This document shows, in pieces, positions 17,880-57,700 of a DNA stretch of 64,000 nt. Origin of the DNA: a bacterium (GTDB lineage: Bacteria; T1Sed10-126); NCBI GenBank assembly GCA_003554945.1, contig PWHN01000057.1, forward strand, positions 380 through 64,379. Direction: 5' to 3'. The notes beneath the pieces are model-generated. The model had not been told where the DNA came from. It saw nothing but the letters and a program-made list of their open reading frames with translations, and searched no databases. A program made the position numbers and the translations under genes. Each line of letters opens with the position of its first letter. Position 1 is the stretch's first letter.

Positions 17880-17900
17880 AACCCAAACGGAGGGAATAAC

Positions 17901-19532
17901 ATGAGCTCTCACGATAAGCTGCTTGCCGATTACAGATTACGACGTGAAGCTGTTGCCCGTCAGCTCGACACTGAACTTTTCGTCAAACCAGAGCAAACAG
18001 TTGAACTGCTGGAAACTGCTATCAAACCGGGCGACGTCGTCTGTCTTGAAGGCAACAACCAGAAACAGGCGGATTTTTTAGCTGAAGCACTGAGTAAAGT
18101 TAACCCGAAAGAAGTAAACAACCTCCACATGGTTCAATCCTCGCTGGTCCTCGACGAACATGTTGAAGTTTTTGAAAAAGGTATCGCCAACCGGCTGGAT
18201 TTTGCCTTCTCTGGACCCCAGGCGAAAAAGCTCTTCAAAGCAGTAAATAGCCAGCAGGTCAATGTGGGCGCCATTCACACCTACCTTGAGCTTTATGGCC
18301 GTTATTTTGTCGACCTCACGCCGCGGGTGGCCATGGTTGTCGCCGACGCCTGTGATCCATCAGGAAACCTTTACACCGGCGCTAATACCGAAGATACACC
18401 GCTGATAACTGAAGCCACTAATTTTAAAAATGGACTTGTTATCGCCCAGGTGAGCGAGAAAAAAGATTCTCTTTCTCGGGTTGATATACCGGCCGACTGG
18501 GTGGATTACATAGTTGTCACTGAAGAACCCTACCATCACGAAGCGCTCTTCACCCGCGACCCCGCTCAGATTACCGACCTCCAGGTATTAACCGGAATGA
18601 TGATAATCAAGGGGATTTATGAAGAATACAAAGTAAGCAAGTTAAACCATGGTCTGGGATTTGCCACTGCCGCTGTTGAATTACTTCTGCCCACTTACGG
18701 GCGTGAAATTGGACTTAGCGGCGAAGTCTGCTCGCACTGGGTTCTAAATCCCCACCCAACACTTATCCCGGCGATTGAGGAAGGGATCGCTCAAAAAGTT
18801 TATCCGTTTGGCGGCGAAATCGGGACTAACGAATACGTCCAGGCCCGACCCGACGTTTTCCCCACCGATAGTAACGGACTCATGCGTTCCGGCCGCTGCA
18901 ACGCCCACGTTGCCGGCCTGTATGGTATTGACTGCTTTACCGGCGCCACCCTGCAAATCGACAAATATGGTAACAGTTCCACCGCCATCGACGGCATGAT
19001 CGCCGGCTTTGGAGGCGCCCCCAACCTTGGCTCAACTCCTCCCGGACGCCGGCATCAGACGGAAGCTTTCGCCAAAGCCGGCGCTGTTCATTACGACAAC
19101 CACTACGGCAGGAAACTTGTCGTCCAGGTCACTCCTACCGTCAGCGAAAAGAAAAGCATACCCGTTTTCCGGGAAAAGTTAGACGCCTATGACCTCTATG
19201 AAGCCGGTCACTTCGAAGCTCCGCCTGTCATGATTGACGCTCAACAGATGACTCACATCGTCACTGAAAAAGGTATCGCCTACCTCGACCGCTGTAACTC
19301 CATGGAAGAACAGATGGCCGCTGTTCGCGCCGTCGCCGGCGACACCGAGGTGGGCGAACGTGAACGCACTGCTGAAACTGACCGGCTGCGCACAAAGGGA
19401 AAGGTTAAAACACCTGACGACCTGGGTATAAATGTGGCTGATGCTACAACCGACAAACTTGCCGCACACAGTATTGAAGATCTGGTTGAAATTTCCAACG
19501 GCCTTTACAATCCACCGCAGTATTTACTCTGA
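17901..19532 (+). CDS. Malonate decarboxylase alpha-subunit (MdcA) / citrate lyase alpha (CitF) family acyl-transferase. It is stand-alone, with no mdcC/D/E nearby.
   Basis: The protein is 543 aa. Long collinear identity blocks with MdcA include LEGNNQKQADFL, LHMVQSS, GAIHTY.EL, GNLYTGANTEDTP, LNHGLGFATAAVELLLPTYG, HWVLNPHPTLIPAIE, GNSST and GFGGAPN. A strong SD GGAGGG lies upstream. Confidence 0.7.
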   Translation: MSSHDKLLADYRLRREAVARQLDTELFVKPEQTVELLETAIKPGDVVCLEGNNQKQADFLAEALSKVNPKEVNNLHMVQSSLVLDEHVEVFEKGIANRLDFAFSGPQAKKLFKAVNSQQVNVGAIHTYLELYGRYFVDLTPRVAMVVADACDPSGNLYTGANTEDTPLITEATNFKNGLVIAQVSEKKDSLSRVDIPADWVDYIVVTEEPYHHEALFTRDPAQITDLQVLTGMMIIKGIYEEYKVSKLNHGLGFATAAVELLLPTYGREIGLSGEVCSHWVLNPHPTLIPAIEEGIAQKVYPFGGEIGTNEYVQARPDVFPTDSNGLMRSGRCNAHVAGLYGIDCFTGATLQIDKYGNSSTAIDGMIAGFGGAPNLGSTPPGRRHQTEAFAKAGAVHYDNHYGRKLVVQVTPTVSEKKSIPVFREKLDAYDLYEAGHFEAPPVMIDAQQMTHIVTEKGIAYLDRCNSMEEQMAAVRAVAGDTEVGERERTAETDRLRTKGKVKTPDDLGINVADATTDKLAAHSIEDLVEISNGLYNPPQYLL

Positions 19533-19711
19533 CACTCAGAACCTATCGAAACATCTCCGTCCTTCACCCCTCTTTGTCTTTCACCCATTAAGGGAGAAAG
19601 ATGCGTTGGAAGGTTCTGCTGATACTCAAAAACCCTTGAAGCAGCAGCACAATCAAGATATATTTATTGTCAACAAACACCTATCAAGTCTTCTGGAAAG
19701 GTGATAATCCC

Positions 19712-20527
19712 ATGCGCACCCCTTTTAACTATTTTGCTCCCGAGACCTTATCCGATGCCCATGAGCTGCTTGAAAAACATGGAGAACGGGCCGAAATTCT
19801 GGCCGGGGGGACCGATTTACTGGTTGATATCCGCAATGACATGAAACAACCCGACGCTGTTATTGATATAAAAAACATTGAAGAACTCAACGGTGTGGAG
19901 TTTGATTCCGACGACGGACTAATAATAAATGCCGCCGCCACCTGCACCGAAGTTTCCAGCCACACTGTCGTCCGAGACCGGTATCCTTTCATAGTTGAGG
20001 CTACCTCGGAACTGGCCTCGCACCAGGTCCGCAACCGGGCGACCGTTGTTGGCAATATATGCAACGCCTCACCCTGCGCTGACGCCGCACGGCCTTTACT
20101 CTGTCTCGACGCCTCAGTTGAAATCAGTTCGCTACAAAACAAGCGAACGCTACCACTTGAGGAGTTCATCACCGGCGTAAAACAAAACGACCTCGCCCCT
20201 GGCGAGCTGGTCGAACGGGTGCGCGTCCCCGTTGAAATGGCTGACGCCCGCGGCGCCAACCGTAAACTTAAACGTATCAAGGGACATGACCTTTCTCTGG
20301 CCAGCGTTACAATGGTTAAAACAGATGCGGAAACACGAGTCTCAATTGGCGCCTGCGGTCCTACCCCGGTAGTGCTGACCGGTTTTGACGCCAGCACTGA
20401 CGTTGACGAGCTTTGCAGTGCAGCCGAAGAGGCTATTTCACCAATCGACGACGTTCGCTCTACCGCCGAATACCGAAACTTCATGATTAAACAGTATATC
20501 CGAGAACTCGACGAAGAGTTGAGCTAA
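19712..20527 (+). CDS. Molybdenum hydroxylase FAD-binding subunit (CoxM/XdhB-like). The start is chosen at MRTPFNYFAP because the SD AAGGTGA sits 8 nt upstream.
   Basis: The FAD-binding fold has ILAGGTDLLVDIRN. The medium-subunit size is typical (~270 aa). Confidence 0.75.
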   Translation: MRTPFNYFAPETLSDAHELLEKHGERAEILAGGTDLLVDIRNDMKQPDAVIDIKNIEELNGVEFDSDDGLIINAAATCTEVSSHTVVRDRYPFIVEATSELASHQVRNRATVVGNICNASPCADAARPLLCLDASVEISSLQNKRTLPLEEFITGVKQNDLAPGELVERVRVPVEMADARGANRKLKRIKGHDLSLASVTMVKTDAETRVSIGACGPTPVVLTGFDASTDVDELCSAAEEAISPIDDVRSTAEYRNFMIKQYIRELDEELS

Positions 20528-20561
20528 CTCGTAATTTTACAATTCTCCACGGGAGGTTATT

Positions 20562-21047
20562 ATGCAAATAAATTTAACCATCAACGGTAATGAATATAGC
20601 CGTGAGGTCGATGAACACAGAAATCTGCTTCACTTTCTCCGCGAAGACCTCGGGCTGACCGGCACAAAAGAAGGGTGTGGCGCCGGAGAATGTGGCGCCT
20701 GCACAGTAATTATGGACGGCGAGCCGGTAAATTCCTGTCTTGTCCTGGCCGCCGAAGCCGACGGCTCTGAAATTGAAACTATCGAAGGCGAAGCAAGTGA
20801 AGGTGAGTTATCTGACTTACAGCAGGCCCTGCACGAACATCACGCCGTGCAGTGCGGCTTCTGCACTCCCGGAATGATTATGTCTCTCAAAGACCTGCTC
20901 CGCCGTAACTCAACCCCCGGTGAAAATGAAATTAGACAGGCGATTGAAGGTAACCTCTGCCGCTGCACCGGTTACGAACAAATAATCGAAGCAGTCCTCG
21001 ATTTAACAGGCCAACTCGATGAAAGAGAGGAGTTAAAGTATGCGTGA
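20562..21047 (+). CDS. Molybdenum hydroxylase [2Fe-2S] small subunit (CoxS-like)
   Basis: The plant-type cluster GCGAGECGACTV and the second cluster CGFCTPG...CRCTGY are present. Confidence 0.85.
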   Translation: MQINLTINGNEYSREVDEHRNLLHFLREDLGLTGTKEGCGAGECGACTVIMDGEPVNSCLVLAAEADGSEIETIEGEASEGELSDLQQALHEHHAVQCGFCTPGMIMSLKDLLRRNSTPGENEIRQAIEGNLCRCTGYEQIIEAVLDLTGQLDEREELKYA

Positions 21048-23433
21048 AGACACTCCCCAGGAAGAACTTAACTACGTTGGTAAAGGAACTGAACGAGTTG
21101 ATACAACTGAAAAATTAACTGGAAAGGCCAAATACACCGGCGATTTGCGCATGCCCGGCATGCTCCACGCCGCCGTCAAACGCAGTCCTCATGCTCGCGC
21201 AAAAATTAATAACATCGACACCTCCGACGCTGAAGCCATCCCCGGTGTCCACGCCGTTGTAACCGGAAAAGAATTTGATTACAAACTCGGTCTCTACCTG
21301 GTCGATAAGGATGTTCTCGCCCGGGAACGTGTCCGCCACCACGGTGAGGCAGTTGCTGCCGTCGCCGCAGAATCTCCCGGTTTGGCCGAGCAAGCAGTGA
21401 AAAAAATTGACGTTGATTACGAAGTTGAAGAACCTGTTCTTGACGCCCTCGAAGCTATTGAGGATGACGACAAGCTTGTTCACCCCGAACTGGACGACTA
21501 CGATTACTTTGAGCCCGCCTTCTCCCCTCAACCCGGCACTAACGTCGCCAACCACACTAAGATCCGTAAAGGCGACGTAGAACAAGGTTTTGAAGAGGCT
21601 GACCACGTAATTGAACGGGAATACACTAATCCCAACGTCCAGCACGTACCGATGGAAACACACGTCGCCGTGGCAAGCTGGAAGGAACAGGATGAGCTTG
21701 ATGTCCATACATCATGTCAGTCCCCCTTCACCGTCCGCAATCTTCTCTGCGTCGCTTTTGACCTGCCCCATACAAATGTTCATGTAGAAGTTCCTTACGT
21801 TGGTGGCGGGTTTGGTGGTAAAGCGGGAATTGGTGTCGAACCTCTGGCCGCCTGTCTGTCTAAAAAAGCTAATGGCCGGCCGGTAAAACTGGAAGCCAGC
21901 CGCGAGGAAGAGTTCAGTCTACTTCCCTGCCGCAGCGGACTAACCTACCGGATTAAATCCGGTGTTACCGAAGACGGTGACCTCGTGGCCCAAAAAATGA
22001 CAATGTTCTGGGACTCCGGCGCTTACGCCGATTATGCCGTTAATGTCACACGGGCATCGGCTTACTCGGCTTCCGGCCCCTACGAAATTCCCAACGCCCA
22101 CGTCGATGCTTATACGATTTACACAAATAAACCCTACGGCACTGCTTACCGTGGTTTCGGACACGTTGAGTTCTCCTGGGGTCTTGAACGACACATGGAC
22201 TTACTTGCTGAAACTATTGATATGGATCCACTTGAATTTAGAAAACAAAACGCTCTCAAACCCGGTTCCATTACGATTACCGGCGAGAAGATAGTGGAAA
22301 ACACCGGCAATGTAACTAAGTGCATGGAAGTGGCCGCTGAGGCCATAAATTATGGCGAACTCACGCCTGAAGAAAAAAAGCGACAGGAAGAGACGGGAAT
22401 GAAGATCGCCAAATCCGTCTCCGCTCTGCACAAGGCGCCGGCTATGCCCTCCTTCACTGCAACCGCCGCCGAACTGCGCATGAACGAAGATGGCTCTATA
22501 AATGCCGATCTATCTCTAACGGAATACGGACAGGGAACTTACACCGCCCTCACCCAGATTATTGCTGAGGAACTGGGCTTCCCGCCGGAGCGTATCAACC
22601 TGAGCATTAAAGGGGATACGGACAAGGCGCCCTACGACTGGCAGACAGTCGCTTCCAAGGGCCTGCTGATGTCCGGTAACGCCTGCATTAAGGCTGCGCG
22701 CGATCTGCTTGAGAAGGCCTACCAGGACGCCTCTGAAGTCCTACGCGCCGACCCCTGTGACCTCGACCATAACGAAAACGAAATTTACATTAAACATCAC
22801 CCCGAAGAATCCGTAACTTTCTCAGAACTTGCTGTTGGGTATGCTTATCCAACCGGCGAAGGTATCGGCGGCCCGATTATCGGTGTCGGACGCTACATGG
22901 CCCAGGGGTTGACCAATCTTGATAAAGAGACCGGCCAGGGTGAGCCGGCCCTGGACTGGACTTACGGCTCCCACGGCGTTGTCGTTGAAGTCAACGAAAT
23001 AACCGGTGAGTTTAACATCCTTAAAGTCGCCTCCGCTTTTGACGTTGGAAAAGCTATTAACCCCGCCAATATCCGCGGCCAGGTGATCGGTGGACTGATC
23101 CAGGGGTTAGGAACAACCATCTGCGAAGGTTACGCTTACGACGACGAAGGACACCTGCTTAACCCCTCCTTTACCGACAACAAAATTCCCACTTCTATGG
23201 ACGTCCCCGAGGAAATTGAAGGTATAGTAATTGAAACGCCTCAAATAGACGGCCCCTACGGGGCTCGCGGCGTCGGCGAACACCCCATGATTGCTCTCTG
23301 CGGCGCTATCGGCAACGCAATTTACTACGCCGCCGGTGCCGACCTGACCCACATGCCCATTCGCTCCGAGGACGTCTGGTGGGCCCTGCATAAGGACGAG
23401 GACCGCGATCGACCAAGATATTCGATCTGCTGA
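21040..23433 (+). CDS. Molybdenum hydroxylase large (molybdopterin-binding) subunit of the xanthine dehydrogenase / aldehyde oxidase / CoxL family
   Basis: The protein is 797 aa and translationally coupled to the 2Fe-2S subunit. Motifs of the aldehyde oxidase/xanthine dehydrogenase a/b hammerhead and Mo-binding domains are present (GGGFGGK, Q.ESPF). Confidence 0.8.
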   Translation: MREDTPQEELNYVGKGTERVDTTEKLTGKAKYTGDLRMPGMLHAAVKRSPHARAKINNIDTSDAEAIPGVHAVVTGKEFDYKLGLYLVDKDVLARERVRHHGEAVAAVAAESPGLAEQAVKKIDVDYEVEEPVLDALEAIEDDDKLVHPELDDYDYFEPAFSPQPGTNVANHTKIRKGDVEQGFEEADHVIEREYTNPNVQHVPMETHVAVASWKEQDELDVHTSCQSPFTVRNLLCVAFDLPHTNVHVEVPYVGGGFGGKAGIGVEPLAACLSKKANGRPVKLEASREEEFSLLPCRSGLTYRIKSGVTEDGDLVAQKMTMFWDSGAYADYAVNVTRASAYSASGPYEIPNAHVDAYTIYTNKPYGTAYRGFGHVEFSWGLERHMDLLAETIDMDPLEFRKQNALKPGSITITGEKIVENTGNVTKCMEVAAEAINYGELTPEEKKRQEETGMKIAKSVSALHKAPAMPSFTATAAELRMNEDGSINADLSLTEYGQGTYTALTQIIAEELGFPPERINLSIKGDTDKAPYDWQTVASKGLLMSGNACIKAARDLLEKAYQDASEVLRADPCDLDHNENEIYIKHHPEESVTFSELAVGYAYPTGEGIGGPIIGVGRYMAQGLTNLDKETGQGEPALDWTYGSHGVVVEVNEITGEFNILKVASAFDVGKAINPANIRGQVIGGLIQGLGTTICEGYAYDDEGHLLNPSFTDNKIPTSMDVPEEIEGIVIETPQIDGPYGARGVGEHPMIALCGAIGNAIYYAAGADLTHMPIRSEDVWWALHKDEDRDRPRYSIC

Positions 23434-23533
23434 CGATTTCGTCTTAAATACTCGCAGCGACTTCTTACTCAAGGACACATCACCTCTGTGGGGACGTGTC
23501 TCTGCCCTCTTCGAAAACTCCTTCGATATTCTT

Positions 23534-24238
23534 TTGGATGATTACCTGGTAAATATCAACTCCGCTCGTCCCGCCCTACATCCGCTGGGAATACTGAGCC
23601 CCGCTTCACTTATTTCTGAAGTCCGCACTGACCAGACGGCTACACTTGAGCCCAACCAGCTTCAAATTGGGTCGCGACAATTCCAGCTTCAGACCCATTT
23701 CGAGCCACCACCTCCTCCTGCAGCAAATGAATTAAAAAATATTGATCTCTCCCCCCTGCGCAAATGTCTCAAAATCCAGGTTAATAAAAGCCGACACAGC
23801 TCTTGCCTCTTGACAAACGATTTTGACTCTCCGCCTGAAATTATTTCCCGCGCCGGACGCGCTTTAGTCGCACAGCTGAATGAAAAACAGGTTGATTTTA
23901 ACCGGCTGTTAAATTACTTTGGCGACGGTGAGGGACTTACCCCTTCTTTTGACGACATCTGCGCTGGAATGCTCTTCGTTGACCGACGGCTAAACTGCAG
24001 CAATGTTAAGCTGCCCGGCGACCTTTTCGAACGGCTAAAAAACAAAACTACCCTGACCAGCCGCTGGCAACTTGAGTTTGCTCGGCGGGGGAAGCTCAGT
24101 CTGGCTTTCGAACAGCTATTTAACCGGCTGATAGAGGGAAAAGTAGCAATTAAAGACTGCTTCTCAGCCTGTCGCTGCGGTCATACTTCGGGTGCAGACA
24201 TATTAACCGGAATTTATCTTTATTTTGAAAATTTCTAA
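23534..24238 (+). CDS. Hypothetical protein, possibly DUF2877-like (YlbF/AllH-type partner of FdrA and DUF1116). It starts with TTG in the track, and the start is uncertain.
   Basis: The protein is 234 aa with GDGEGLTPSFDD and GHTSGADILTG motifs. Its position directly after the Mo-hydroxylase and before fdrA/DUF1116 supports the call. The assignment rests mainly on context. Confidence 0.35.
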   Translation: MDDYLVNINSARPALHPLGILSPASLISEVRTDQTATLEPNQLQIGSRQFQLQTHFEPPPPPAANELKNIDLSPLRKCLKIQVNKSRHSSCLLTNDFDSPPEIISRAGRALVAQLNEKQVDFNRLLNYFGDGEGLTPSFDDICAGMLFVDRRLNCSNVKLPGDLFERLKNKTTLTSRWQLEFARRGKLSLAFEQLFNRLIEGKVAIKDCFSACRCGHTSGADILTGIYLYFENF

Positions 24239-24639
24239 CCACTCAACACTGTTCACCCAACATATAGTTAAATGCAAAGTTTGACCGTTTTATACCTTCC
24301 TGATCAACATAATCTGTGCCTCAAACTATGCATATAACTTAACCAACCGCGAGTTGCCTTCAAAACCACCTTTTTAACACCATATTACTCTCCCCTAACT
24401 ACGCCCACGTCCGTTCAACCCCTTTAACGCACTCTTTTTAGACAGCCTTTTCCCTGCACAAAGCCTGAAAAACCCAATTTTTCCTGGTTTTTACAAAATT
24501 GAATTGGTAACTGTTTAGCGCCTATCGTCATATTTCGTTTAGTTCGTCATTTCGACCCCAGAGCTGGAAAACACCAGCTTAAAGCTCAAAGCTAATTCAA
24601 ATCCATTAAGTGCTCATAATCTTGTTCTTTAACTTGAGT

Positions 24640-25060
24640 TTGGTTTTGGTCTTTCGCCTCTTCGCCCCGTCGCCCGCTCGCCTCTTCGAGCATTCCGGCC
24701 TCCGAGCCGGAATCCAGAGGCGTTGAGCTTTTGATTGTCATTCCTGCGGAAGCGGGAATCCAGCGGCGTTGAATTTGAATTAAGAAAAAGTCAATGTCAA
24801 AGTCACTGGATTGTCCGGTCAAGCCGGACAATGACGACCAATAGATCAAGCCCGTTCTTGAATTTGACGTCATTCCGGCCTCCGAGCCGGAATCCATCTT
24901 GAAGAGCAGTAATCGGTAATCGGTAATCAGTGTTCAGTGAAGTCAAAACCGATTACCGAATACCGAACACCGTTTACTGAACTTCTTGCAGGTCAAGTCC
25001 TGGGACGTTATTCGTTCCCGCAATGACGGCCGATAGAGCATACCCGTAACGGCGGCGGTG
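24640..25060. repeat. Copy A of a modular hairpin-rich miniature repeat family. It holds dRS3-like hairpins of the form ATTCC(G/C)GC-N6-8-GC(G/C)GGAAT at 24692..24713, 24740..24759 and 24871..24892. It holds a TTGTCCGG..CCGGACAA hairpin at about 24810..24830, a TCGGTAA heptamer array at about 24908..24960, and a TTATTCGTTCCCGCAATGAC module at about 25005.
   Basis: I read these directly from the sequence. The same modules recur at 26430..26600, 28805..29060, 33470..33710 (inverted) and 57610..57700. Track ORF 24592..24897 is an artefact of the repeat. Confidence 0.8.
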
Positions 25061-25154
25061 GCGCCAAATAAATACGCAAATTGCTATCAATCGAATAAAA
25101 ACAAATATTGTTCTGTTATATTCAATGAATAGATAAACGACCACACTAACTACA

Positions 25155-25283
25155 CCCCCTCAGAAAAAATTTCCTCCTTGAAGGGGGGAAAGACAAAGGG
25201 AGATGAAATATAGCCCTCGCACGCAAGGGAAAAGGCAACTTTTTAGAAAGTCTCTAACTACGTCAAAGTATTTTGACGTAGTT
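25155..25283. repeat. H3 module (CCCCCTT..GGGGAAAGACAAAGGG) at 25155..25200, followed by a perfect 12-bp-stem hairpin AACTACGTCAAA-GTAT-TTTGACGTAGTT at 25256..25283 that abuts the integrase start codon
   Basis: The inverted repeat is read directly. The H3 module also occurs at 26458..26505, 33528..33575 and 57617..57650. Confidence 0.75.
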
Positions 25284-26288
25284 ATGGATAAATTCCACGC
25301 TGATGGGTGGTCTATCATGCAAAAAACATTGGAGGTAAGTGGCGGCTCCATGCCGACGGCACATCTGCTGGCGGAGGATTTTCAACGCATGTTGACGGAA
25401 AACGACTACAGTCAGAGCACCTGCTCCACTTACCTCCGCTTCGTCGAACCCTTCCTCAAAGAAAATCCTCATCCCGCAGAAATGGACCGTTATGACGTCG
25501 GACGGTACATCCTCAAGTGGCGCAATCAGCTCAGCAATAACTCGATGAAACTGGCCACCAGCGCCCTGATTAAATTTTACAAATACCTTAAGTTTTACCA
25601 CGGTTTCCGACGGGCCGACGCAGTTATCGATCACATCCAGGATTTGAAGGGAGAATTTTTTCGCACCCCCTCTTTTCAACCGGACCCGATGAGCGAGGAT
25701 GAATTAAGTACCCTCTTCCAGTACACCCTGGGGGCAAATCCCCGTCAGGTTAGGCGCCGAAATATCATTACTATACTGCTGGGCACCGGTCTGCGCGTCT
25801 CCGAATTCTGTGCCGTGCGCCGCGATCAGGTTGCGATCCACGAACCCGGCGTCCAGTCACATATTTTTGTTCCCGGGGGAAAAACAGCTTCGGCCCGGCG
25901 CAAAATTCCTCTCCACCGCGACTTCCCCTACTCCAACTCCTGGATACTCGGCGAACGAGTCGTCGAAGCATTCGACAGCTATGAAAAAGTCCGACCCGTT
26001 CCTCGAACTGAGGAAACAGAAAATTTCTGGTTTATCTCCGAACGGGGCCAGCCCATCTCCAAACGTTCCGTCCAGGCAATGTTTACCCGTCTCTGTGAAA
26101 AATCAGGGCTGCAGAAAAAAAGGGCGGAAGCTGATGAAAACTCACTGTCGGTTCACAATCTACGTCACACTTTTGCCACTCAACTGGCCATGCAGGGAGC
26201 TAACGCCTACCAGATCAAGGCTATCCTCGGCCACGCTTCAGTCAGCACCTCCCAGGCCTACATCCGACTGCTCGATCGCGTCGGCTAA
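25284..26288 (+). CDS. Tyrosine recombinase/integrase. The start is ambiguous (25203, 25284, 25317 or 25350). The track's first 27 codons are encoded by repeat DNA and are probably not real.
   Basis: The catalytic motifs are present: box I GLRVSEFCAV, the K-box GGKTASAR, and HNLRHTFAT...LGHASVSTSQAYIR with the tyrosine. About 90 residues lie between the K-box and the HxLRH box, which is longer than in XerC/D. Confidence 0.8.
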   Translation: MDKFHADGWSIMQKTLEVSGGSMPTAHLLAEDFQRMLTENDYSQSTCSTYLRFVEPFLKENPHPAEMDRYDVGRYILKWRNQLSNNSMKLATSALIKFYKYLKFYHGFRRADAVIDHIQDLKGEFFRTPSFQPDPMSEDELSTLFQYTLGANPRQVRRRNIITILLGTGLRVSEFCAVRRDQVAIHEPGVQSHIFVPGGKTASARRKIPLHRDFPYSNSWILGERVVEAFDSYEKVRPVPRTEETENFWFISERGQPISKRSVQAMFTRLCEKSGLQKKRAEADENSLSVHNLRHTFATQLAMQGANAYQIKAILGHASVSTSQAYIRLLDRVG

Positions 26289-26429
26289 AAAACAGTCGTT
26301 ACTCACTCCAAATAGCTTACCTGACCGACCGGGGATAACTAACGCCGGTCCAACCCTACGTTTTTATTTAGTTTATCAGCAATTTTCGATACACTTGTAG
26401 AAATAAGAAACTCACTCAAAACCACTCAA

Positions 26430-26600
26430 CGTCACCCCGGACAGGTGACCCCGGAATCCCCCCTTTCTTTTTCCCCCCTTGAAGGGGGGAAAGACAAAGG
26501 GGGGTGAAGAAAATGGATTGCGGAGCGGGGTCCGCAATGACGAGCAATAGGTCACTATCTGAAAAGTTATTCGTTCCCGACAATGACAAAAACATTGGAA
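26430..26600. repeat. Partial copy of the modular repeat family. It holds a GTCACC..GGTGAC hairpin, an H3 module at 26458..26505, the H2 hairpin ATTGCGGAGCGGGGTCCGCAAT at 26517..26538, and a TTATTCGTTCCCGACAATGAC module.
   Basis: Read directly. Track ORF 26412..26615 on the minus strand lies entirely within the repeat and is probably spurious. Confidence 0.75.
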
Positions 26601-26635
26601 GATTTTAAACCCCACAACAGAGGAGTGTAAAAACT

Positions 26636-28162
26636 ATGGAAGTAATCACTAAAATCAAGCAGGACACCTATTACGACTCAGTGACACTGATGCTGGTCAG
26701 CAGCGAAATTGAAAAAATGGAAGCTGTTGAAGAAGCGATGATCGGCATGGGAACGGATTACAACATCGAGAGCCTTCAACGGCTGGATATGTTTGGCACA
26801 GAGCACGAGGACGCAACACCGAATGACCTGATTCTCACCGTAAAAGCAGCCGACGCCAAAGCGGGCGAAAAAGCTATTGAAACGGCAGAAGAAAAGCTGA
26901 AAGAAAAATCTCAATCCAGCGGTGGCGTAAGCGCCTACAACCCTCCGACCCAGGAGAGAGCCGCCGACATGCTCCCCGGGGCCAACATGGTCTTAATTTC
27001 TGTGCCGGGTGAGCACGCAGCCAAAGAGGCCCACGAAGCACTGGACAACGACCGGCACGTCATGCTGTTTTCGGACAACGTAAGCCTGGATGAAGAACTG
27101 GAACTGAAAGAAAAAGCGGTGAAAAAAGGACTGCTTATGATGGGGCCCGACTGCGGGACCTCAATTATCAACGGCGTGCCACTCGCCTTCGCCAACGCCG
27201 TTCGCGGGGGTAATATTGGACTGGTCGCCGCCTCGGGCACCGGCCTGCAGGAGACTACGAGCATAATTCATCAGCTTGGTGGCGGTATCAGTCAGGCTAT
27301 CGGTGTCGGCGGACGCGACCTCTCTGCCCAAATTGAAGGGCGAATGACGCTACTGGCCGCCAGGGCCCTCGATCGCGACGACAATACCGATGTTATCACC
27401 CTGATTTCTAAACCACCCGACGAGACAATCCTCGCACCTCTGCTAAAGGAGCTTAATTCACTCAGTAAACCGGTAGTCATTTATTTTATTGGTGCCGATC
27501 AGGCAAAAATTGAAGCGGAAGGATTCACCGCCGCCGGCGACCTGGAGAACGCTGCCGTACAATCCTGCCGGCTCGCTGGTGTTGATGCTGCCGACTCACT
27601 AATAAACCAGGCGGAAATTGAACAAAAAGCGGCCAAAATACAGCTTTCCGGTCCTTATCTACGTGGTCTCTATTCCGGCGGCACTCTCTGCGATGAAGCC
27701 CAGCGAATCCTCCACGATCGGCTGGATGAAATTTACTCGAACACACCCGTTGAAGGTTGTCACGAACTCGAAGACCTCTATCAAAGCAAAGCGCACACAA
27801 TCATCGACCTCGGCGAGGACGAGTTCACCCAGGGACGCGCTCACCCCATGATCGATCCTACACTGCGTAAAGAAAGAATTGTTCAAGAAATGCAAGACCC
27901 TGAAGTGGGGATAATACTGTTGGACGTCGTCCTCGGCTATGGCGCTCATCCGGACATGGCCGGTGCCCTCGTCGAAGCTATAGAAGAGGGTAAATCCGCC
28001 GCGGACAGTCCACCGCTGGTTGCCGCTTCTATCTGTGGAACCGACCAGGACCCGCAAAATTACGAACAGCAGAAAAATACCCTCGAAGAGGCTGGGGTTT
28101 ATGTTTTCCCATCTAACGTCTCCATGGTAAAATTTGCATATCAGTTGTTTGAAACGACATAA
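26636..28162 (+). CDS. fdrA: FdrA family protein (succinyl-CoA-synthetase-like fold), reported in E. coli as the AllF subunit of oxamate carbamoyltransferase
   Basis: The protein is 508 aa. Its N-terminus MEVITKIKQDTYYDSVTLMLVSSEI is characteristic of FdrA. CoA-binding and ligase-like glycine-rich segments are present (GPDCGTSIINGV, GLVAASGTGLQE). The SD is AGAGGAG. Confidence 0.7.
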   Translation: MEVITKIKQDTYYDSVTLMLVSSEIEKMEAVEEAMIGMGTDYNIESLQRLDMFGTEHEDATPNDLILTVKAADAKAGEKAIETAEEKLKEKSQSSGGVSAYNPPTQERAADMLPGANMVLISVPGEHAAKEAHEALDNDRHVMLFSDNVSLDEELELKEKAVKKGLLMMGPDCGTSIINGVPLAFANAVRGGNIGLVAASGTGLQETTSIIHQLGGGISQAIGVGGRDLSAQIEGRMTLLAARALDRDDNTDVITLISKPPDETILAPLLKELNSLSKPVVIYFIGADQAKIEAEGFTAAGDLENAAVQSCRLAGVDAADSLINQAEIEQKAAKIQLSGPYLRGLYSGGTLCDEAQRILHDRLDEIYSNTPVEGCHELEDLYQSKAHTIIDLGEDEFTQGRAHPMIDPTLRKERIVQEMQDPEVGIILLDVVLGYGAHPDMAGALVEAIEEGKSAADSPPLVAASICGTDQDPQNYEQQKNTLEEAGVYVFPSNVSMVKFAYQLFETT

Positions 28163-28278
28163 CTAAACGCAAAAACGCCAAGAAATCGATTTGGAGGATG
28201 ACATCAAAAACTATAACAACTTTAAGATCAAGAGCGAAAAACACTAAGTCGCAAAGACGCTAAGGAAGACAATTAATT

Positions 28279-28521
28279 ATGGACGAGAATTATTTGAGTA
28301 ATCAAATAATCAATGCTGCTATTGAGGTTCATCAATGGCTCGGTGGACCTGGTTTGTTGGAGTCTGTGTACGAAAAATCTTTAGCAAAAGAGTTACGGGA
28401 TCGTAACTTTAAAATTCAACAACAAGTCAGCTTCCCTATTGAATATAAAGAGGAAGAACTTAATGAAAAATTCAGATAAGAAGGTATCCATCGAGTGGTT
28501 AACAATTTGTAATTAAAAACT
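28279..28521 (+). pseudogene. Degraded GxxExxY-family gene (PD-(D/E)XK-like, often transposon-associated). The N-terminal 66 codons are followed by a stop and then by the family's C-terminal EGIHRVVNNL in frame. About 50-60 internal codons are deleted.
   Basis: The N-terminal part is NAAIEVHQWLGGPGLLESVYEKSLAKELRDRNFKIQQQVSFPIEYKEEEL..FR. After the TAA the frame continues EGIHRVVNNL-stop, which matches the family C-terminus G(I/L)xRxVNN. The local region is AT-rich. Confidence 0.6.
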
Positions 28522-28590
28522 TTGCGGCTTTGCGCCTTCGCGTTTTTGCTTTTTTTCACTATGTCATTAACCTATAACAGGGTGATTTTT

Positions 28591-28764
28591 ATGAAGCCAA
28601 TTGACTCGCTTTTTAACGAAGAAGTTAAAGTGATTAACCTGGGGATTCCCGCTTTTCGCGACGACCTTGACGAGCAGGGCGTGGAAGTGGTTCACGTCGA
28701 CTGGAGTCCTCCGGCCGGCGGCAACAAAAAAATGCAGTCACTGCTCAACCAGCTCAAGGGGTGA
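28591..28764 (+). CDS. Small hypothetical protein of 57 aa (MKPIDSLFNEEVKVINLGIPAFRDDLDEQGVEVVHVDWSPPAGGNKKMQSLLNQLKG), located between fdrA and the DUF1116 gene
   Basis: An SD-like AGGGTGA lies 7 nt upstream of the ATG. There is no recognisable family. The longer track ORF 28522..28764 begins with a hydrophobic stretch that is unlikely to be real. Confidence 0.35.
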   Translation: MKPIDSLFNEEVKVINLGIPAFRDDLDEQGVEVVHVDWSPPAGGNKKMQSLLNQLKG

Positions 28765-28804
28765 CTATTAAAAATCATTTGAGCTTATTAGGATTATCTC
28801 AAAA

Positions 28805-29060
28805 TTTTTCCTCGTCATTCCCGCGGAAGCGGGAATCAAGTTGAAGTTCAGTAACCGGTAATCGGTAGTCGGTGATCGGTAACTTCGGTAGTTCAACATC
28901 AAAGTCACTGGATTACCCGGTCGAGCCTTGGGGCGTTATTCGTTCCGGGCAATGACGTTCGGTAATGCTGAATTACGGGTCGGACCCCACAATGATGAGC
29001 GTAAGGTCTTGACTGTCATTCCCGCGGAAGCGGGAATCCAGCGACGTTGAACTTATGATG
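28805..29060. repeat. Copy B of the modular repeat family, in the same orientation as copy A. It holds ATTCCCGCGGAAGCGGGAAT hairpins at 28817..28836 and 29017..29036, a TCGGTAA heptamer array, and TCAAAGTCACTGG and TTATTCGTTCCGGGCAATGAC modules.
   Basis: Read directly. The module order is shuffled relative to copy A. Confidence 0.8.
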
Positions 29061-29119
29061 GTTAAGAAGCATCCGCTTTTGATATTATGATGTTAACCCG
29101 CAACACACAACACGATGTT

Positions 29120-29306
29120 ACTTTCACACTTTTTCACTTTTTAACTTTTTAACTTTGCAACTTTATAACTTTCACACTTTTAAACTTTGTAACTTTCACA
29201 CTTTTAAACTTTGTAACTTTCACACTTTTAAACTTTGTAACTTTCACACTTTTAAACTTTGTAACTTTCACACTTTTTAACTTTCACACTTTTTAACTTT
29301 CACACT
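29120..29306 (+). promoter_or_regulatory. Tandem array of about 23 octamers (A/C)ACTTTNN. It includes four perfect copies of the 24-mer CTTTCACACTTTTAAACTTTGTAA and ends in CTTTCACACTCTAAGGAGG (the SD), 9 nt before the DUF1116 ATG. It is extremely G-poor.
   Basis: Direct reading shows ACTTT recurring with strict 8-bp period over about 187 bp. A second shorter array of the same unit precedes the next gene. Confidence 0.8.
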
Positions 29307-29322
29307 CTAAGGAGGAAATAAA

Positions 29323-30570
29323 ATGAACGTTGACATAGAAAAAGCTAATCAGAAGGTAATCGATAAAATCCAGGCTGGTAATCCGGTACTTAAAGGTATT
29401 GGAACGGTTGGTGAAAATGTCCCGGAAGTTCACAAAAAAATGATACTTCACGCCGGCCCGCCAGTGGAATGGGAAGACATGAGTGGCCCCACCAGGGGAG
29501 CTGTAATTGGCGGTTTAATCTACGAGGGGCTTGCCAAAGACGAGGACGAGGCGCGGGCGCTCGCCGCATCCGGTGAAATAGAGTTTGACCCCTGGCACGA
29601 ACATAGTGGTGTTGGGCCGATGGCCGGCGTCGCCACTGTCAGCATGCCGGTCTGGATTGTGGAAAATACGACTGAAGGCGGGCAAGCCTACTGCACATTC
29701 AACGAAGGGCTTGGCAAGGTCTTACGTTACGGTGCCTACGCGCCTGATGTGATTGACCATCTTAAGTGGATGGAAAATGAGCTGGCTCCAGTTTTAACTG
29801 AAACGCTGGCCCAGCTTGATAATGAAATAAACCTGAAGAGTATTATCGCTGAAGCTCTTGAGATGGGAGATGAGGTTCACAACCGCAACCGGGCGGCCAC
29901 TTCACTCTTCTACCGCCGCATCACTCCGGCTCTTTTGGAAACCGATTTCAACGTTGATAAAAAGAAAAAGGTCCTGGAATTTATTGACTCTAACGATCAT
30001 TTCTTTTTAAATCTCAGCATGCCGGCGGCCAAATCAATGATCCAGGTCGCCGAGGGAATTGAAGGCTCCTCTATCCTGACAGTTTTAGCACGAAACGGTA
30101 CTGAAACGGGAATAAAAATAGCCGGACTGGGTGACCAGTGGTTCACCGCCAAAGCGCCGGTTCCCGAGGGCCTGCTCTTCTCCGGTTACGATAAAGACGA
30201 CGCCTGTGCCGATATTGGCGACAGCACGATCACTGAAACTGTCGGTCTTGGTGCCTTTTCCATGGCTGCCTCACCGGCAATTGTTAAATTTGTCGGCGGC
30301 AGCGTCGAGGACGCTTTCAACTTCACCCGTAAAATGTATGAAATCTGTGAAGACGAGTCCGAAAACTTCAAGGTGGCCACGCTGGACTTTCGCGGCGCAC
30401 CGACCGGAGTCAACTTGCTAAAAGTCTGTGAGCTTGATATCACGCCCCAGATTAATACCGGTATAGCCCACAAGGAGCCGGGCATAGGACAAATTGGGGC
30501 CGGACTTGTTCAGGCACCAATGAAGTGTTTCGAACAGGCGCTGGAGGCGTTCGCCGCCAAATACGCATAA
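29323..30570 (+). CDS. DUF1116 family protein (YlbE-like), reported as the AllG subunit of oxamate carbamoyltransferase
   Basis: The protein is 415 aa. The conserved N-terminal block ILHAGPPVEWEDMSGPTRGAVIGGLIYEGLAKDEDEA and the block NEGLGKVLRYGAY are typical of YlbE/DUF1116. The gene context with fdrA supports it. Confidence 0.65.
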   Translation: MNVDIEKANQKVIDKIQAGNPVLKGIGTVGENVPEVHKKMILHAGPPVEWEDMSGPTRGAVIGGLIYEGLAKDEDEARALAASGEIEFDPWHEHSGVGPMAGVATVSMPVWIVENTTEGGQAYCTFNEGLGKVLRYGAYAPDVIDHLKWMENELAPVLTETLAQLDNEINLKSIIAEALEMGDEVHNRNRAATSLFYRRITPALLETDFNVDKKKKVLEFIDSNDHFFLNLSMPAAKSMIQVAEGIEGSSILTVLARNGTETGIKIAGLGDQWFTAKAPVPEGLLFSGYDKDDACADIGDSTITETVGLGAFSMAASPAIVKFVGGSVEDAFNFTRKMYEICEDESENFKVATLDFRGAPTGVNLLKVCELDITPQINTGIAHKEPGIGQIGAGLVQAPMKCFEQALEAFAAKYA

Positions 30571-30574
30571 CTAA

Positions 30575-30633
30575 AACTTTCACACTTTGTAACTTTCAAA
30601 CTTTCACACTTTGTAACTTTCAAACTTTCACAC
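30575..30633 (+). promoter_or_regulatory. Second tandem array of about 7.5 octamers (AACTTTCA / CACTTTGT / AACTTTCA ...). It ends in CTTTCACACTCTAAGGAGG, 8 nt before the cyclase ATG.
   Basis: Direct reading. The terminal 19 nt are identical to the end of the first array. Confidence 0.8.
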
Positions 30634-30650
30634 TCTAAGGAGGAGTCACA

Positions 30651-31430
30651 ATGGTAAAACTTTATGATTTAACACAAGATCTGAGCATTCACACCCCCCC
30701 CTGGCCCAGTTACATGCCCCTGCAACTGCAGTATTTTAAACGTATTTCAGGTGCCCACATGGGACAGGGAGCCAACGGTCAGATCGTCAAGACGAGTATG
30801 CACGTCGGCACACACATAGACGGCGAGAAACACTTTGACGCCAAGGGACGGACGATAGGCGAAGTCCCGCTTGAGGAATTTTGCGGGGAGGGAGTAGTCG
30901 TTGACATCTCTGATGATGTTGAAGATTTTTCTCTTTACTCACCCGAGATGCTGGAATCAAAGGCCGACATTCGTGAAGGAGACATTCTAATAATTAACAC
31001 CGGCTACCACAGATACGCCTGGGACCAGCCCGAGAGCGACGAGCTGCGCTACATGGTCAAACACCCGGGCCCAAACCCTGACTTTCACAAGTGGGCCCTG
31101 GAGATGGATTTCAAGTGGATTGGCGTCGACTGCGGTAGTGCCGACCATCCGATGAACACTATCCTTCGTGACTGGCACCCCGGTCTGTTCGAAAAAGCCG
31201 AGGCAAAACTTAAAGAAGACTACGGCAAGAGCTGGGACGAGATGTTCCCCTACGAGGAATACTACCAGGTCATGCACCTTGATCTATTTCCAGAGGGCCT
31301 GATCCACGCCGAAAACCTCGGCGGCGAAATTAACGAGCTCAACAACCAGCGCTCCTGGATTGGGCTTTTCCCCTGGAAAGGTATCGAAATGGAGTCCTCA
31401 ATCTGCCGCATTGCTGCTTTTGAGTTTTAA
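30651..31430 (+). CDS. Cyclase-family metal-dependent hydrolase (kynurenine formamidase / isatin hydrolase family)
   Basis: The signature motif HxGTHxDxxxH appears as MHVGTHIDGEKHF. The protein is 259 aa. The SD is AAGGAGG. Confidence 0.75.
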   Translation: MVKLYDLTQDLSIHTPPWPSYMPLQLQYFKRISGAHMGQGANGQIVKTSMHVGTHIDGEKHFDAKGRTIGEVPLEEFCGEGVVVDISDDVEDFSLYSPEMLESKADIREGDILIINTGYHRYAWDQPESDELRYMVKHPGPNPDFHKWALEMDFKWIGVDCGSADHPMNTILRDWHPGLFEKAEAKLKEDYGKSWDEMFPYEEYYQVMHLDLFPEGLIHAENLGGEINELNNQRSWIGLFPWKGIEMESSICRIAAFEF

Positions 31431-33469: not shown

Positions 33470-33710
33470 ATTCCCGTCATTGAGAGAACGACTAACGTCC
33501 CAAAACTTGACCCGCAAGACATTTTTACCCCCCCTTTGTCTTTCCCCTCTTCAAGGGTGGAAAGGAAAGGGGGGATGGTCTTGAACTAAAGATTGTCATT
33601 GCGGGCTCCAACCCGCAATCCATTTTTACGGGTTTGAATGATAAACACGTCAACTTCAAGATGGATCCCGGCTCGCGCTCCCTTCGGTCGCTTGGCCGGA
33701 ATGACGGAGT
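33470..33710. repeat. Copy C of the modular repeat family, in inverted orientation relative to A/B. It holds an H3 module CCCCCCTTTGTCTTTCCCC..GGGGGG, the H2 hairpin ATTGCGGGCTCCAACCCGCAAT, and the reverse complement of the dRS3-like hairpin (GGATCCCGGCTCGCGCTCCCTTCGGTCGCTTGGCCGGAATGAC).
   Basis: Read directly. It lies between the 3' end of the fumarase beta gene and the malic enzyme promoter region. Confidence 0.75.
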
Positions 33711-57552: not shown

Positions 57553-57609
57553 TTTACATACTCCTTAAATTGATTTGTCAAAATCATACCACAGCCAAAA
57601 CCTTCCGGT

Positions 57610-57700
57610 GTCATTCCTCCTCCCCTTTTTGAAAGGGGAAAGACAACGGGGACCATAAAAAATGGATTGCGGGGCGGGGCCCGCAATAACGAACTCGTTG
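57610..57700. repeat. Copy D of the modular repeat family. It holds H3 (CCCCTTTTTGAAAGGGGAAAGACAACGGGG) and the H2 hairpin ATTGCGGGGCGGGGCCCGCAAT at 57665..57686.
   Basis: Read directly. Track ORFs 57495..57716 and 57565..57771 are probably artefacts. Confidence 0.75.

What the first reader, a model, noticed from the sequence alone, without database searches (positions are those of the whole stretch)
24239..26635. A tyrosine-recombinase gene and hairpin repeat DNA are inserted between the DUF2877-like gene and fdrA, splitting an otherwise contiguous operon.
Upstream of the insertion, genes are separated by 0-180 bp. Here a 2.4-kb non-operonic block intervenes. It holds 350 bp of featureless spacer, about 420 bp of modular hairpin repeats (copy A), an H3 module and a 12-bp-stem hairpin abutting an integrase gene, and then another partial repeat (26430..26600) before fdrA. 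A second repeat copy (B, 28805..29060) in the same orientation lies after fdrA and the degraded GxxExxY gene. Copies A and B therefore bracket 25061..28804 as imperfect direct repeats. This looks like a recent insertion or rearrangement mediated by the recombinase and/or the repeat family into a metabolic operon. It may have placed fdrA under new control or mobilised it as cargo.
Basis: partly seen in the sequence, partly recalled or inferred. Interest (0 to 1): 0.6.

Follow-up and report, generated by a model that had tools for sequence, protein, structure and literature searches.

The report
Recombinase module and hairpin repeats splitting operon
A small recombinase gene that always travels with its own 93-base palindromic DNA site has landed between two genes of a metabolic operon in an uncultured bacterium. 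The "hairpin repeat DNA" around it is a separate, genome-wide family of Neisseria-type hairpin repeats, so the case is a modest variant of known things, not a new kind of mobile element.

Summary
Window 24239-26635 is a 2.4-kb block between allH (DUF2877) and fdrA that carries an intact tyrosine recombinase and strongly folding hairpin repeats.

Three related genomes (L005, L032, L033) have allH and fdrA adjacent, 81-368 bp apart, with no recombinase. Two of them carry the recombinase elsewhere. The arrangement here is therefore a derived insertion.

It is not recent. A sister species (L009, about 85% nucleotide identity) shares its left part.

The "featureless spacer" starts with a 93-nt imperfect palindrome (24251-24343). 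This element precedes the recombinase in all 8 genomes where enough upstream sequence is available, once per locus.

The recombinase belongs to a small clade (7 protein clusters). It is Xer-like, closest to XerA, and under purifying selection (dN/dS 0.06). The best reading is a "site plus simple recombinase" module, as in XerS/difSL. GC skew shows no replication terminus nearby.

The hairpins match the Neisseria dRS3/NTS consensus and also lie in other spacers in the window. In relatives they occur without the recombinase, and the recombinase occurs without them. Copies A and B are not element boundaries.

An 11-bp direct repeat (24237 and 26420) may mark the insertion (p about 0.005-0.01).

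Interest is modest.

The parts
23534..24238 (+). allH (DUF2877/AllH), the last operon gene before the block. The frame is open back to 23366, but the ATG used in L009 is ACG here.
   Evidence: Pfam AllH E 9e-16; translation; L009 ORF 3983-4849.
24237..24247 (+). Left copy of the 11-bp perfect direct repeat AACCACTCAAC. It overlaps the allH stop codon.
   Evidence: There are only two exact copies in 64 kb. P(>=11-mer shared by the two junction regions) is 0.005 by shuffling, and 2 of 167 real control windows reach it. The L009 copy has diverged.
24251..24343 (+). Conserved 93-nt imperfect palindrome that accompanies the recombinase gene. Its arms are about 24266-24284 and 24321-24339, around a centre of fixed length but variable sequence. 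The left box reads CAYYYAAC-ATATA-GTTAARTG.
   Evidence: The alignment of 7 genomes has no gaps. 81% of arm cells pair, against 21-48% when slid. Model R1 finds one copy per locus in 8 genomes, including L031, which was not in the training set (E 9e-11), and no second copy in the window.
24344..24689 (+). Unique spacer, absent between the element and the gene in other genomes. From about 24361 it is 97-100% identical to L009.
   Evidence: No significant fold (z -1.3 and +1.6) and no Rfam match.
24690..25050 (+). Hairpin array A: NTS/dRS3-type hairpins (24692-24713, 24740-24759, 24872-24893), an inverted variant (24810-24832), a heptad hairpin (24905-24985), and the module at 24991-25028.
25150..25207 (+). 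C/G-run hairpin module, one arm degenerate. It is the left member of the 38-nt direct repeat that flanks the recombinase.
   Evidence: Family D11 and pair I2.
25317..26288 (+). Xer-like tyrosine recombinase, 323 aa (the ORF is open from 25203). Catalytic R, K, H-x-x-R, H and Y are all present.
   Evidence: dN/dS is 0.06 against L009.
26420..26430 (+). Right copy of the 11-bp direct repeat AACCACTCAAC.
26430..26600 (+). Hairpin array between the recombinase and fdrA: a strict Ssn-related-motif match at 26430-26461, a 23-nt-arm C/G palindrome at 26458-26504, a hairpin at 26517-26538, and a module at 26550-26587.
   Evidence: (I3).
26636..28162 (+). fdrA (AllF-type acyl-CoA synthetase), 508 aa, full length for this clade.
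   Evidence: NCBIfam FdrA 510.8 bits, above the cut-off of 433; homologues are 505-510 aa.
28163..28591 (+). Second insertion: a degraded GxxExxY (PD-(D/E)XK_3) gene at 28279-28479, flanked by 18-nt inverted repeats at 28165-28182 and 28536-28553. It sits in a junction that is 5-25 nt long in relatives.
   Evidence: (I10).
28592..28764 (+). 57-aa ORF homologous to the C-terminal 55 residues of E. coli FdrA. It is a separate ORF in all relatives as well.
28800..29060 (+). Hairpin array B, with two exact dRS3 matches (28817-28836 and 29018-29037).
29116..29310 (+). Tandem array (ACTTTNNN)n with a 24-nt super-period, immediately 5' of the allG ribosome-binding site. A shorter array lies at 30574-30634, before the cyclase gene.
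   Evidence: (D1). Relatives have 43-nt and 24-nt spacers at these junctions.

Best explanation
The block is two unrelated things lying on top of each other.

(1) A compact "site plus simple tyrosine recombinase" module. It consists of a 93-nt imperfect palindrome followed by an intact Xer-like recombinase gene. The module is a conserved feature of a small uncultured lineage, seen once in each genome found. In the common ancestor of this genome and one sister species it came to lie between allH and fdrA of an operon encoding a xanthine-dehydrogenase-family enzyme and the oxamate carbamoyltransferase subunits. I infer that the palindrome is the recombinase's own cis site, for recombination and probably autoregulation. 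This would match the genetically linked XerS/difSL and XerH/difH modules and plasmid or transposon resolution systems. The module moved as a discrete unit, and the 11-bp direct repeat at 24237 and 26420 may be the scar.

(2) NIME-like arrays of dRS3/NTS-type hairpin repeats plus other hairpin modules. This is a genome-wide intergenic family that fills non-essential spacers independently of the recombinase. The same operon also acquired a GxxExxY remnant and short tandem arrays.

Shown: the interruption of the operon, the conservation and uniqueness of the palindrome, the integrity and purifying selection of the recombinase, and the dispersal and independence of the hairpins.

Inferred: that the recombinase acts on the palindrome, what the reaction is for, and how the module got here.
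For: Contiguous allH-fdrA in L005, L032 and L033, with the recombinase elsewhere in the same genomes.

The palindrome is present once, in the same orientation, 164-237 nt upstream of the start codon in six other genomes. The distance is about 975 nt here and about 1140 nt in L009, because repeats lie in between.

The module is tight. In other genomes, unrelated genes lie 53-120 nt before the palindrome and in several start 4-21 nt after the stop codon. There are five different contexts.

Two divergent genomes keep Fpg-DUF2225-[module]-ApbE. Their flanking proteins are 61-73% identical and the recombinase is 77-87% identical.

Recombinase properties:
- A clade of 7 clusters at 62-100% identity, with the next hits at <=32%.
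- All catalytic residues present.
- dN/dS 0.06.
- A two-domain fold, mean pLDDT 87, closest to XerA.

Linked site-plus-single-recombinase modules are documented for XerS/difSL and XerH/difH (PMC2731167, PMC5357621).

Hairpins:
- They match dRS3 exactly twice, and the 28-nt NTS consensus three times with 2-3 mismatches, against 0 expected (PMC1797815, PMC11893778).
- They are dispersed in the window.
- They show insertion polymorphism against L009.
- They are not consistently associated with the recombinase in other genomes.
Against: No direct evidence shows that the recombinase binds or recombines the palindrome.

The architecture is atypical for a core site: 16-19-nt arms about 36-40 nt apart, or an 8+5+8 left box. 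Arm covariation is not above the shuffle controls.

GC skew is uniformly negative across the 64 kb and on both sides of the module in L004, L010 and L014. The module is therefore not at a skew switch, as a dif-type site should be.

The 11-bp direct repeat is seen only here, was found post hoc, and is only moderately unlikely by chance.

The spacer and array A are 97-100% identical to L009, while recombinase synonymous sites differ by 20% and operon genes by 30-56%. The model does not explain this layering.
Confidence: 0.55

Rival explanations
1. The recombinase is the integrase of a minimal, now probably immobile, integrative element of 2.18 kb. The element is bounded by the 11-bp direct repeats (24237-24247 and 26420-26430), which are the shared att core. 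The palindrome is one arm of the former attP.
For: A perfect 11-mer occurs only at the two junctions. The left copy abuts the conserved element. The block is more similar to L009 than the flanking operon is. In L009, synteny ends exactly at the recombinase stop codon. The module sits in five different contexts.
Against: No comparable direct repeats flank the module in five other loci. Each genome found shows one copy, and two genomes as divergent as 61-73% in flanking proteins share the same position. There is no cargo, no tRNA or tmRNA target, and no relatives or motif in viral contigs. The L009 left repeat differs at 4 of 11 positions.
Confidence: 0.2
2. The palindrome is only the promoter or operator region of an ordinary lineage-specific gene. 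The gene reached this position through non-specific rearrangement, for example homologous recombination between dispersed hairpin repeats. The recombinase acts elsewhere in the genome.
For: Conserved upstream boxes are normal for a vertically inherited gene. The right arm contains a -10-like CATATAAT/C. Dispersed repeats lie on both sides and differ between sister species.
Against: The sigma-70 consensus scan finds no promoter-like site on the + strand in the element. An invariant 12-mer, the fixed 96-column spacing across 7 genomes, and the two-armed symmetry go beyond a simple promoter. Simple tyrosine recombinases commonly have their site next to the gene.
Confidence: 0.15
3. One reading: the recombinase and the hairpin repeats form one system. 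Either the recombinase uses the hairpins as its sites, or copies A and B bound a composite unit carrying fdrA.
For: The repeats lie on both sides of the recombinase, and a 38-nt direct repeat flanks it (D11). In Neisseria, dRS3 is reported as a target of a phage recombinase, and NIME arrays were proposed as recombinase sites.
Against: Hairpins occur without the recombinase, and the recombinase occurs without hairpins, in relatives. The same modules sit in other spacers of the window. The order fdrA, 57-aa ORF, allG is ancestral. A and B are mosaics with one module inverted. In published work NTS-type repeats are tied to GIY-YIG Ssn nucleases, not to tyrosine recombinases.
Confidence: 0.07

Closest known systems
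XerS/difSL and XerH/difH single-recombinase modules (chromosome dimer resolution)
   Same: One simple tyrosine recombinase is genetically linked to a low-GC palindromic site just upstream. The module is self-contained and present once per genome (PMC2731167, PMC5357621). The recombinase has the CB plus catalytic two-domain fold.
   Different: Those sites are 28-40 bp, with 10-11-bp arms around a 6-11-bp centre, and lie near the GC-skew switch. Here the conserved element is 93 nt with arms about 36-40 nt apart. It lies 164-237 nt from the gene, and no skew switch is seen within -24/+40 kb. Protein identity to any Xer is <=32% and all NCBIfam scores are far below the cut-offs.
Archaeal XerA (PDB 5hxy, 4a8e)
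   Same: It is the best sequence and structure match (E 2.1e-24; Foldseek E 3e-12 at 27% identity; NCBIfam XerA 121.7 bits).
   Different: The score is below the XerA cut-off of 220. Relative to XerA, this protein has a 13-residue insertion after the Lys beta-hairpin and an 8-residue insertion before H-x-x-R. The host is bacterial.
Neisserial intergenic mosaic elements (dRS3 + RS) and NTS / Ssn-related motifs
   Same: ATTCCC-N8-GGGAAT hairpins, extended to CGTCATTCC...GGAATCYRG, are arrayed with short intervening segments in intergenic DNA and vary between close relatives.
   Different: The host is an uncultured non-neisserial lineage. The arrays also contain other hairpin module types (C/G-run palindromes, heptad hairpins). 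No ssnA-like GIY-YIG gene was seen in the window, though only by a crude motif scan. Only one site meets the strict published SRM pattern.
Integron integrase with attI
   Same: The N-terminal SAM_4 domain and a site upstream of the gene. The left box reads RYYYAAC-N5-GTTRRRY in 6 of 7 genomes. That consensus is quoted from my own knowledge, so this is a lead only.
   Different: TIGR02249 scores 65.8 bits against a cut-off of 265. No attC cassette array is present, and the gene is not divergent from any cassette array.
Transposon and plasmid resolution modules with the site just upstream of a tyrosine recombinase (Tn4430 TnpI/IRS, F ResD/rfsF, P1 Cre/loxP; from my own knowledge)
   Same: A multi-box site directly upstream of, and probably regulating, a small tyrosine recombinase gene.
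   Different: The context here is chromosomal housekeeping (ribosomal protein S1, ValRS, LeuA, ScpAB). No transposase or plasmid genes are present.

Membership tests
Tyrosine recombinase superfamily | Catalytic R...K...H-x-x-R...H/W...Y and the two-domain fold | tested here: met
   Pfam PF00589 at 99 bits, above the cut-off of 27. R198, K227, H318, R321, H344 and Y353 are invariant in the clade. The AF2 model has pLDDT 87 and matches XerA, Tn1549 Int, lambda Int and Cre.
XerC / XerD / XerA / XerS (NCBIfam equivalogs) | Score at or above the curated cut-off | tested here: not met
   XerA 121.7 against 220; XerC 117.8 against 335; XerD 106.6 against 330; XerS 56 against 267.
dif/Xer-type dimer-resolution module | A single palindromic low-GC site linked to the recombinase, seen once per genome | tested here: met
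   One 93-nt element per locus in 8 genomes, GC 0.30-0.44, and none elsewhere in 64 kb. One recombinase locus per genome in the GTDB scan.
dif/Xer-type dimer-resolution module | Site at the replication terminus (GC-skew switch) | tested here: not met
   Skew is -0.05 to -0.22 throughout the window, with only a local rise to about 0 (-0.009 to +0.004) at 26-32 kb and no lasting sign change. It is negative on both sides in L004, L010 and L014, with only a weak change in L002.
dif/Xer-type dimer-resolution module | Core of two 10-11-bp inverted arms around a 6-11-bp centre | tested here: inconclusive
   The left box CAYYYAAC-ATATA-GTTAARTG is an 8+5+8 quasi-palindrome. The stronger symmetry is 16-19-nt arms about 36-40 nt apart.
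dif/Xer-type dimer-resolution module | Absence of canonical XerC/XerD in the genome; dependence on FtsK | not testable with these tools
   Only fragments of the MAGs are available.
Integron integrase | TIGR02249 above cut-off and adjacent attC cassettes | tested here: not met
   65.8 bits against 265, matching the C-terminal stretch only. The neighbouring hairpins belong to a dispersed family with no cassettes.
Phage or ICE integrase in an integrated element | att direct repeats, cargo genes, and often a tRNA/tmRNA target | tested here: inconclusive
   There is one 11-bp direct repeat here but none in five other loci. There is no tRNA, no cargo, and no relatives in viral contigs.
NIME / dRS3 / NTS hairpin repeats | ATTCCC-N8-GGGAAT (dRS3) and the 28-nt NTS consensus | tested here: met
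   Two exact dRS3 matches and one with 1 mismatch, against 0.35 expected. Three NTS matches with 2-3 mismatches, against 0 expected.
NIME / dRS3 / NTS hairpin repeats | Arrays of hairpins separated by short variable segments, intergenic and variable between relatives | tested here: met
   Array A has hairpins 26-50 nt apart. There are other intergenic sites in the window. Presence differs between the window and L009.
NIME / dRS3 / NTS hairpin repeats | A cognate Ssn (GIY-YIG, cd10448) nuclease gene in the genome | not testable with these tools
   A motif scan found none in the window. The rest of the genome is not available.

The most novel reading that the evidence does not exclude
The 93-nt palindrome plus recombinase (about 1.3 kb without repeats) is a previously undescribed self-mobile unit. 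It would be an integrase-only element, a prokaryotic analogue of eukaryotic Cryptons, or a transposable Xer/dif-like module. It would relocate by recombination at the left edge of its own palindrome and could land inside operons. It would also define a new single-recombinase system in a barely sampled bacterial lineage.
Probability: 0.15. Interest if true: 0.65.

Novelty: new variant of a known kind. Interest (0 to 1): 0.35.

Why it matters
If the palindrome is the recombinase's site, this is a new single-recombinase site-specific system from an uncultured lineage. Its site architecture is unusual and its position is non-terminal. That would bear on how Xer-like modules originate and move, and it could provide a new recombinase/site pair.

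The locus also shows Neisseria-type NTS/dRS3 hairpin arrays colonising operon spacers far outside Neisseria. Insertion polymorphism between sister species makes it a small natural record of how such repeats inflate operons.

As an operon-disruption event it is ordinary.

Tried and rejected
- Rfam, at gathering threshold and at E<=1, gave only chance miRNA-like hairpin hits. No tRNA or tmRNA was found.
- The first genome-contig scan with FdrA found nothing, because its peptide patterns were too strict. The metagenome-contig scan with the recombinase alignment gave only two unrelated weak hits.
- Viral contigs hold no relatives and no motif.
- A literature search for the peptide strings that the hairpins translate to found nothing. 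A search for the T7 epsilon sequence returned only irrelevant sequence listings.
- The unique spacer 24346-24690 was tested as a structured RNA. It has no significant fold on either strand.
- A small ORF inside the palindrome is open in the window and in L010 but is stopped at its second codon in L014 and L002 (sequence). Rejected.
- The palindrome as a sigma-54 or sigma-70 promoter: the boxes are not consistent across genomes by eye, and the scan gave no hit.
- The palindrome as an invertible segment: a spacer of about 36-40 bp is too short for inversion of duplex DNA (own knowledge).
- Arm covariation does not exceed shuffles, so hairpin and protein-site models cannot be told apart.
- Direct repeats flanking the module in other loci reach only chance-level 8-9-mers.
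- Assembly chimera as the cause of the arrangement: three independent assemblies agree.
Full report
**What is there.** The + strand from 17031 to 31430 carries one operon-like row of genes:
- a nitrilase-family gene and an MdcA-like gene;
- the FAD, 2Fe-2S and molybdopterin subunits of a xanthine-dehydrogenase-family enzyme;
- allH (DUF2877), fdrA, a 57-aa ORF, allG (DUF1116) and a cyclase-family gene.

The rest of the window is chromosomal housekeeping: ribosomal protein S1, ValRS, LeuA, aspartate kinase and ScpAB. As ssDNA, the hairpin blocks fold far better than shuffled sequence (z -6.2, -3.9 and -4.6). The same arrangement appears in independent JGI and Logan assemblies of the same population.

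**Is it an insertion?** Yes. FdrA homologues of this clade are about 508 aa, so fdrA is intact. Three related genomes were examined:
- L005 (GCA_964631325.1, FdrA 72% identical);
- L032 (GCA_964555265.1, 68%);
- L033 (GCA_046546195.1, 66%).

All three carry FAD-Fer2-Mo-allH-fdrA-57aa-allG. L005 and L033 also show the cyclase gene, while L032's contig ends just after allG. Their allH-fdrA gaps are 81, 368 and 142 bp, with no recombinase. In two of these genomes the orthologous recombinase lies on another contig (L002/L011 and L010). The contiguous operon is therefore ancestral and the window's state is derived.

**It is not a recent, strain-level event.** L009 is a sister species whose operon genes are about 85% identical in DNA (dS 0.38-1.03). 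It has the same allH-element-spacer-repeats-recombinase order. In L009, homology stops at the recombinase stop codon (window 26292). A convergent NuoE-like gene follows instead of fdrA, so a second rearrangement has occurred there.

**The recombinase.** Alignment with its relatives puts the start at M39 (25317, 323 aa). All catalytic residues are invariant. It belongs to a clade of only seven 90%-identity clusters at 62-100% identity. The next hits are generic Xer proteins at <=32%. Every NCBIfam Xer or integron model scores far below its cut-off. The best solved relative is archaeal XerA. The AF2 model (pLDDT 87) is a standard core-binding plus catalytic fold, closest to XerA, followed by the Tn1549 and lambda integrase cores, XerH, IntI and Cre. 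Against L009 its dN/dS is 0.06. No relatives were found in viral contigs.

**The "featureless spacer" is not featureless.**
- Right after the allH stop lies a 93-nt element (24251-24343). It recurs upstream of this recombinase, in the same orientation, in every genome with enough flank: the window, L009, L010, L014, L002, L029, L004 and L031.
- The alignment of seven genomes has no gaps. It shows an invariant AACATATAGTTA, a second box AAACTWTKCRTATAA, and a centre of fixed length but free sequence.
- The two boxes are inverted repeats. 81% of cells pair in register, against 21-48% when slid. Covariation does not exceed shuffles.
- A sequence model finds exactly one copy per locus. It detects L031, which was not in the training set, at E 9e-11, and finds no second copy in the 64-kb window.
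- In the six other genomes the element ends 164-237 nt before the start codon. Here and in L009 about 750-900 nt of extra spacer and repeats lie in between.

**How tight the module is.** Unrelated genes end or begin 12-120 nt before the element. In several genomes they start 4-21 nt after the stop codon. There are five different contexts. Two divergent genomes nonetheless share Fpg-DUF2225-[module]-ApbE, with flanking proteins 61-73% identical and the recombinase 77-87% identical. Each genome in the GTDB scan showed one locus. The module is therefore a conserved, mostly vertically inherited unit that has occasionally relocated.

**Likely function.** The best-supported reading is a cis site with its cognate simple recombinase. 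This is the arrangement documented for XerS/difSL and for XerH/difH in most epsilon-proteobacteria (PMC2731167, PMC5357621). From my own knowledge, it is also the arrangement in transposon and plasmid resolution systems.

A true dif role faces two objections:
- GC skew is negative on both sides of the module throughout the window and in L004, L010 and L014.
- The site architecture is atypical.

I therefore treat "acts at its own upstream palindrome" as inferred, and the biological purpose as open.

**A possible insertion scar.** An 11-bp perfect direct repeat, AACCACTCAAC, occurs only at 24237-24247 and 26420-26430, bracketing 2183 bp. Shuffling gives P = 0.005, and 2 of 167 real control windows do as well. 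No such repeat flanks the module in other genomes, and the L009 left copy has diverged. It is suggestive at most.

**The hairpin repeats.**
- The commonest module, (C/T)GTCATTCC-stem-loop-stem-GGAATCCAG, matches the Neisseria dRS3 definition ATTCCC-N8-GGGAAT exactly twice.
- It matches the 28-nt NTS consensus three times with 2-3 mismatches, against none expected. The definitions come from PMC1797815 and PMC11893778.
- One site (26430-26461) meets the strict published Ssn-related-motif pattern.
- Together with the C/G-run palindromes, the GGATTG...CAATGAC hairpins, a heptad hairpin and a fifth module, they form NIME-like mosaics.

The family is dispersed. Copies lie at 19562, 33474-33706, 46460 and 57605-57700, all intergenic. 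It turns over quickly. L009 has a hairpin insertion of about 220 nt between the FAD and Fer2 genes, where the window has a 34-nt spacer. Array A also differs between the two genomes by a module swap.

The family is independent of the recombinase:
- L032 has hairpins in its allH-fdrA spacer without any recombinase.
- L002 has eight hairpin sites scattered over 18 kb.
- The recombinase loci of L004, L010, L013 and L031 have none.

Copies A and B are therefore two of many arrays and do not mark the ends of an element. The genes between them keep the ancestral order.

**Other decay in the same operon.**
- A degraded GxxExxY gene, flanked by 18-nt inverted repeats, sits in the fdrA/57-aa-ORF junction, which is 5-25 nt long in relatives.
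- Tandem (ACTTTNNN)n arrays precede the ribosome-binding sites of allG and the cyclase gene.
- The ATG start of allH is ACG here, and allH evolves with dN/dS 0.24.

**Unexplained.** Against L009, the non-coding stretch from about 24361 to 24902 is 97.5% identical, with 180 nt at 100%. Recombinase synonymous sites differ by 20%, and those of the operon genes by 30-56%. The stretch is not a structured RNA by folding and has no Rfam match. One possibility is recent gene flow ending in the arrays, as proposed for NIME arrays in Neisseria. An unknown constraint is another. I could not distinguish between them.

**Verdict.** The block is a real, derived interruption of the operon. It is older than the split of two species. 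The hairpins are bystanders from a known class of repeat. The unit that matters is the palindrome-plus-recombinase module, a new variant of the known "site plus single Xer-like recombinase" theme.

Noticed in passing
window 29116-29310 and 30574-30634: Tandem arrays of an 8-nt unit (ACTTTNNN; 24-nt super-period, 7 and 2.5 copies) lie on the coding strand directly before the CTAAGGAGG ribosome-binding sites of allG and the cyclase gene. Relatives have 43-nt and 24-nt spacers there. The units (T/A)AACTTT resemble the TTAACTTTA 'epsilon' translational enhancer of the T7 gene 10 leader. That resemblance is from my own knowledge and was not tested.
   Followed up: partly
window 28163-28591: A degraded GxxExxY (PD-(D/E)XK_3) gene with an internal deletion, flanked by 18-nt inverted repeats (28165-28182 and 28536-28553), is inserted in the fdrA/57-aa-ORF junction. 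The ancestral TGAtttttATG junction seems to survive at 28583-28594. It looks like a small selfish insertion of its own.
   Followed up: partly
window 23366-23534: The allH frame is open upstream, but the ATG used in the sister species is ACG here. The first canonical start is TTG at 23534, giving 234 aa against 245-288 aa in relatives. The allH dN/dS against L009 is 0.24, compared with 0.04-0.06 for its neighbours. The gene may be under relaxed selection.
   Followed up: partly
window 24361-24902 against L009 4972-5512: This non-coding spacer plus hairpin array A is 97.5% identical between two species whose neighbouring genes are about 85% identical. It includes 180 nt at 100%. It is much more conserved than the synonymous sites of the adjacent recombinase. 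Unexplained.
   Followed up: partly
L009 920-1140 against window 20521-20554: A hairpin-repeat cluster of about 220 nt sits between the FAD and Fer2 genes in the sister species but not in the window. This insertion polymorphism shows that the repeats move or are lost on a short time scale.
   Followed up: yes
L009 7066-7789: In the sister species, homology to the window ends at the recombinase stop codon, and a convergent NuoE-like [2Fe-2S] gene follows. No fdrA orthologue of that genome was found in the protein database or the genome scan, so the second half of the operon may be lost or moved there.
   Followed up: partly
window 25257-25282: A perfect 11-bp-arm palindrome, ACTACGTCAAA-GTAT-TTTGACGTAGT, lies 35 nt upstream of the likely recombinase start codon. 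L009 has a similar one. It is not seen upstream of the gene in the more distant genomes I inspected (L002, L004).
   Followed up: no
window 15903-16826 and L032/L033: A family-2 glycosyltransferase gene on the opposite strand precedes the operon in the window and in two relatives. In the window, two extra genes (nitrilase-family and MdcA-like) lie between it and the FAD subunit gene.
   Followed up: no
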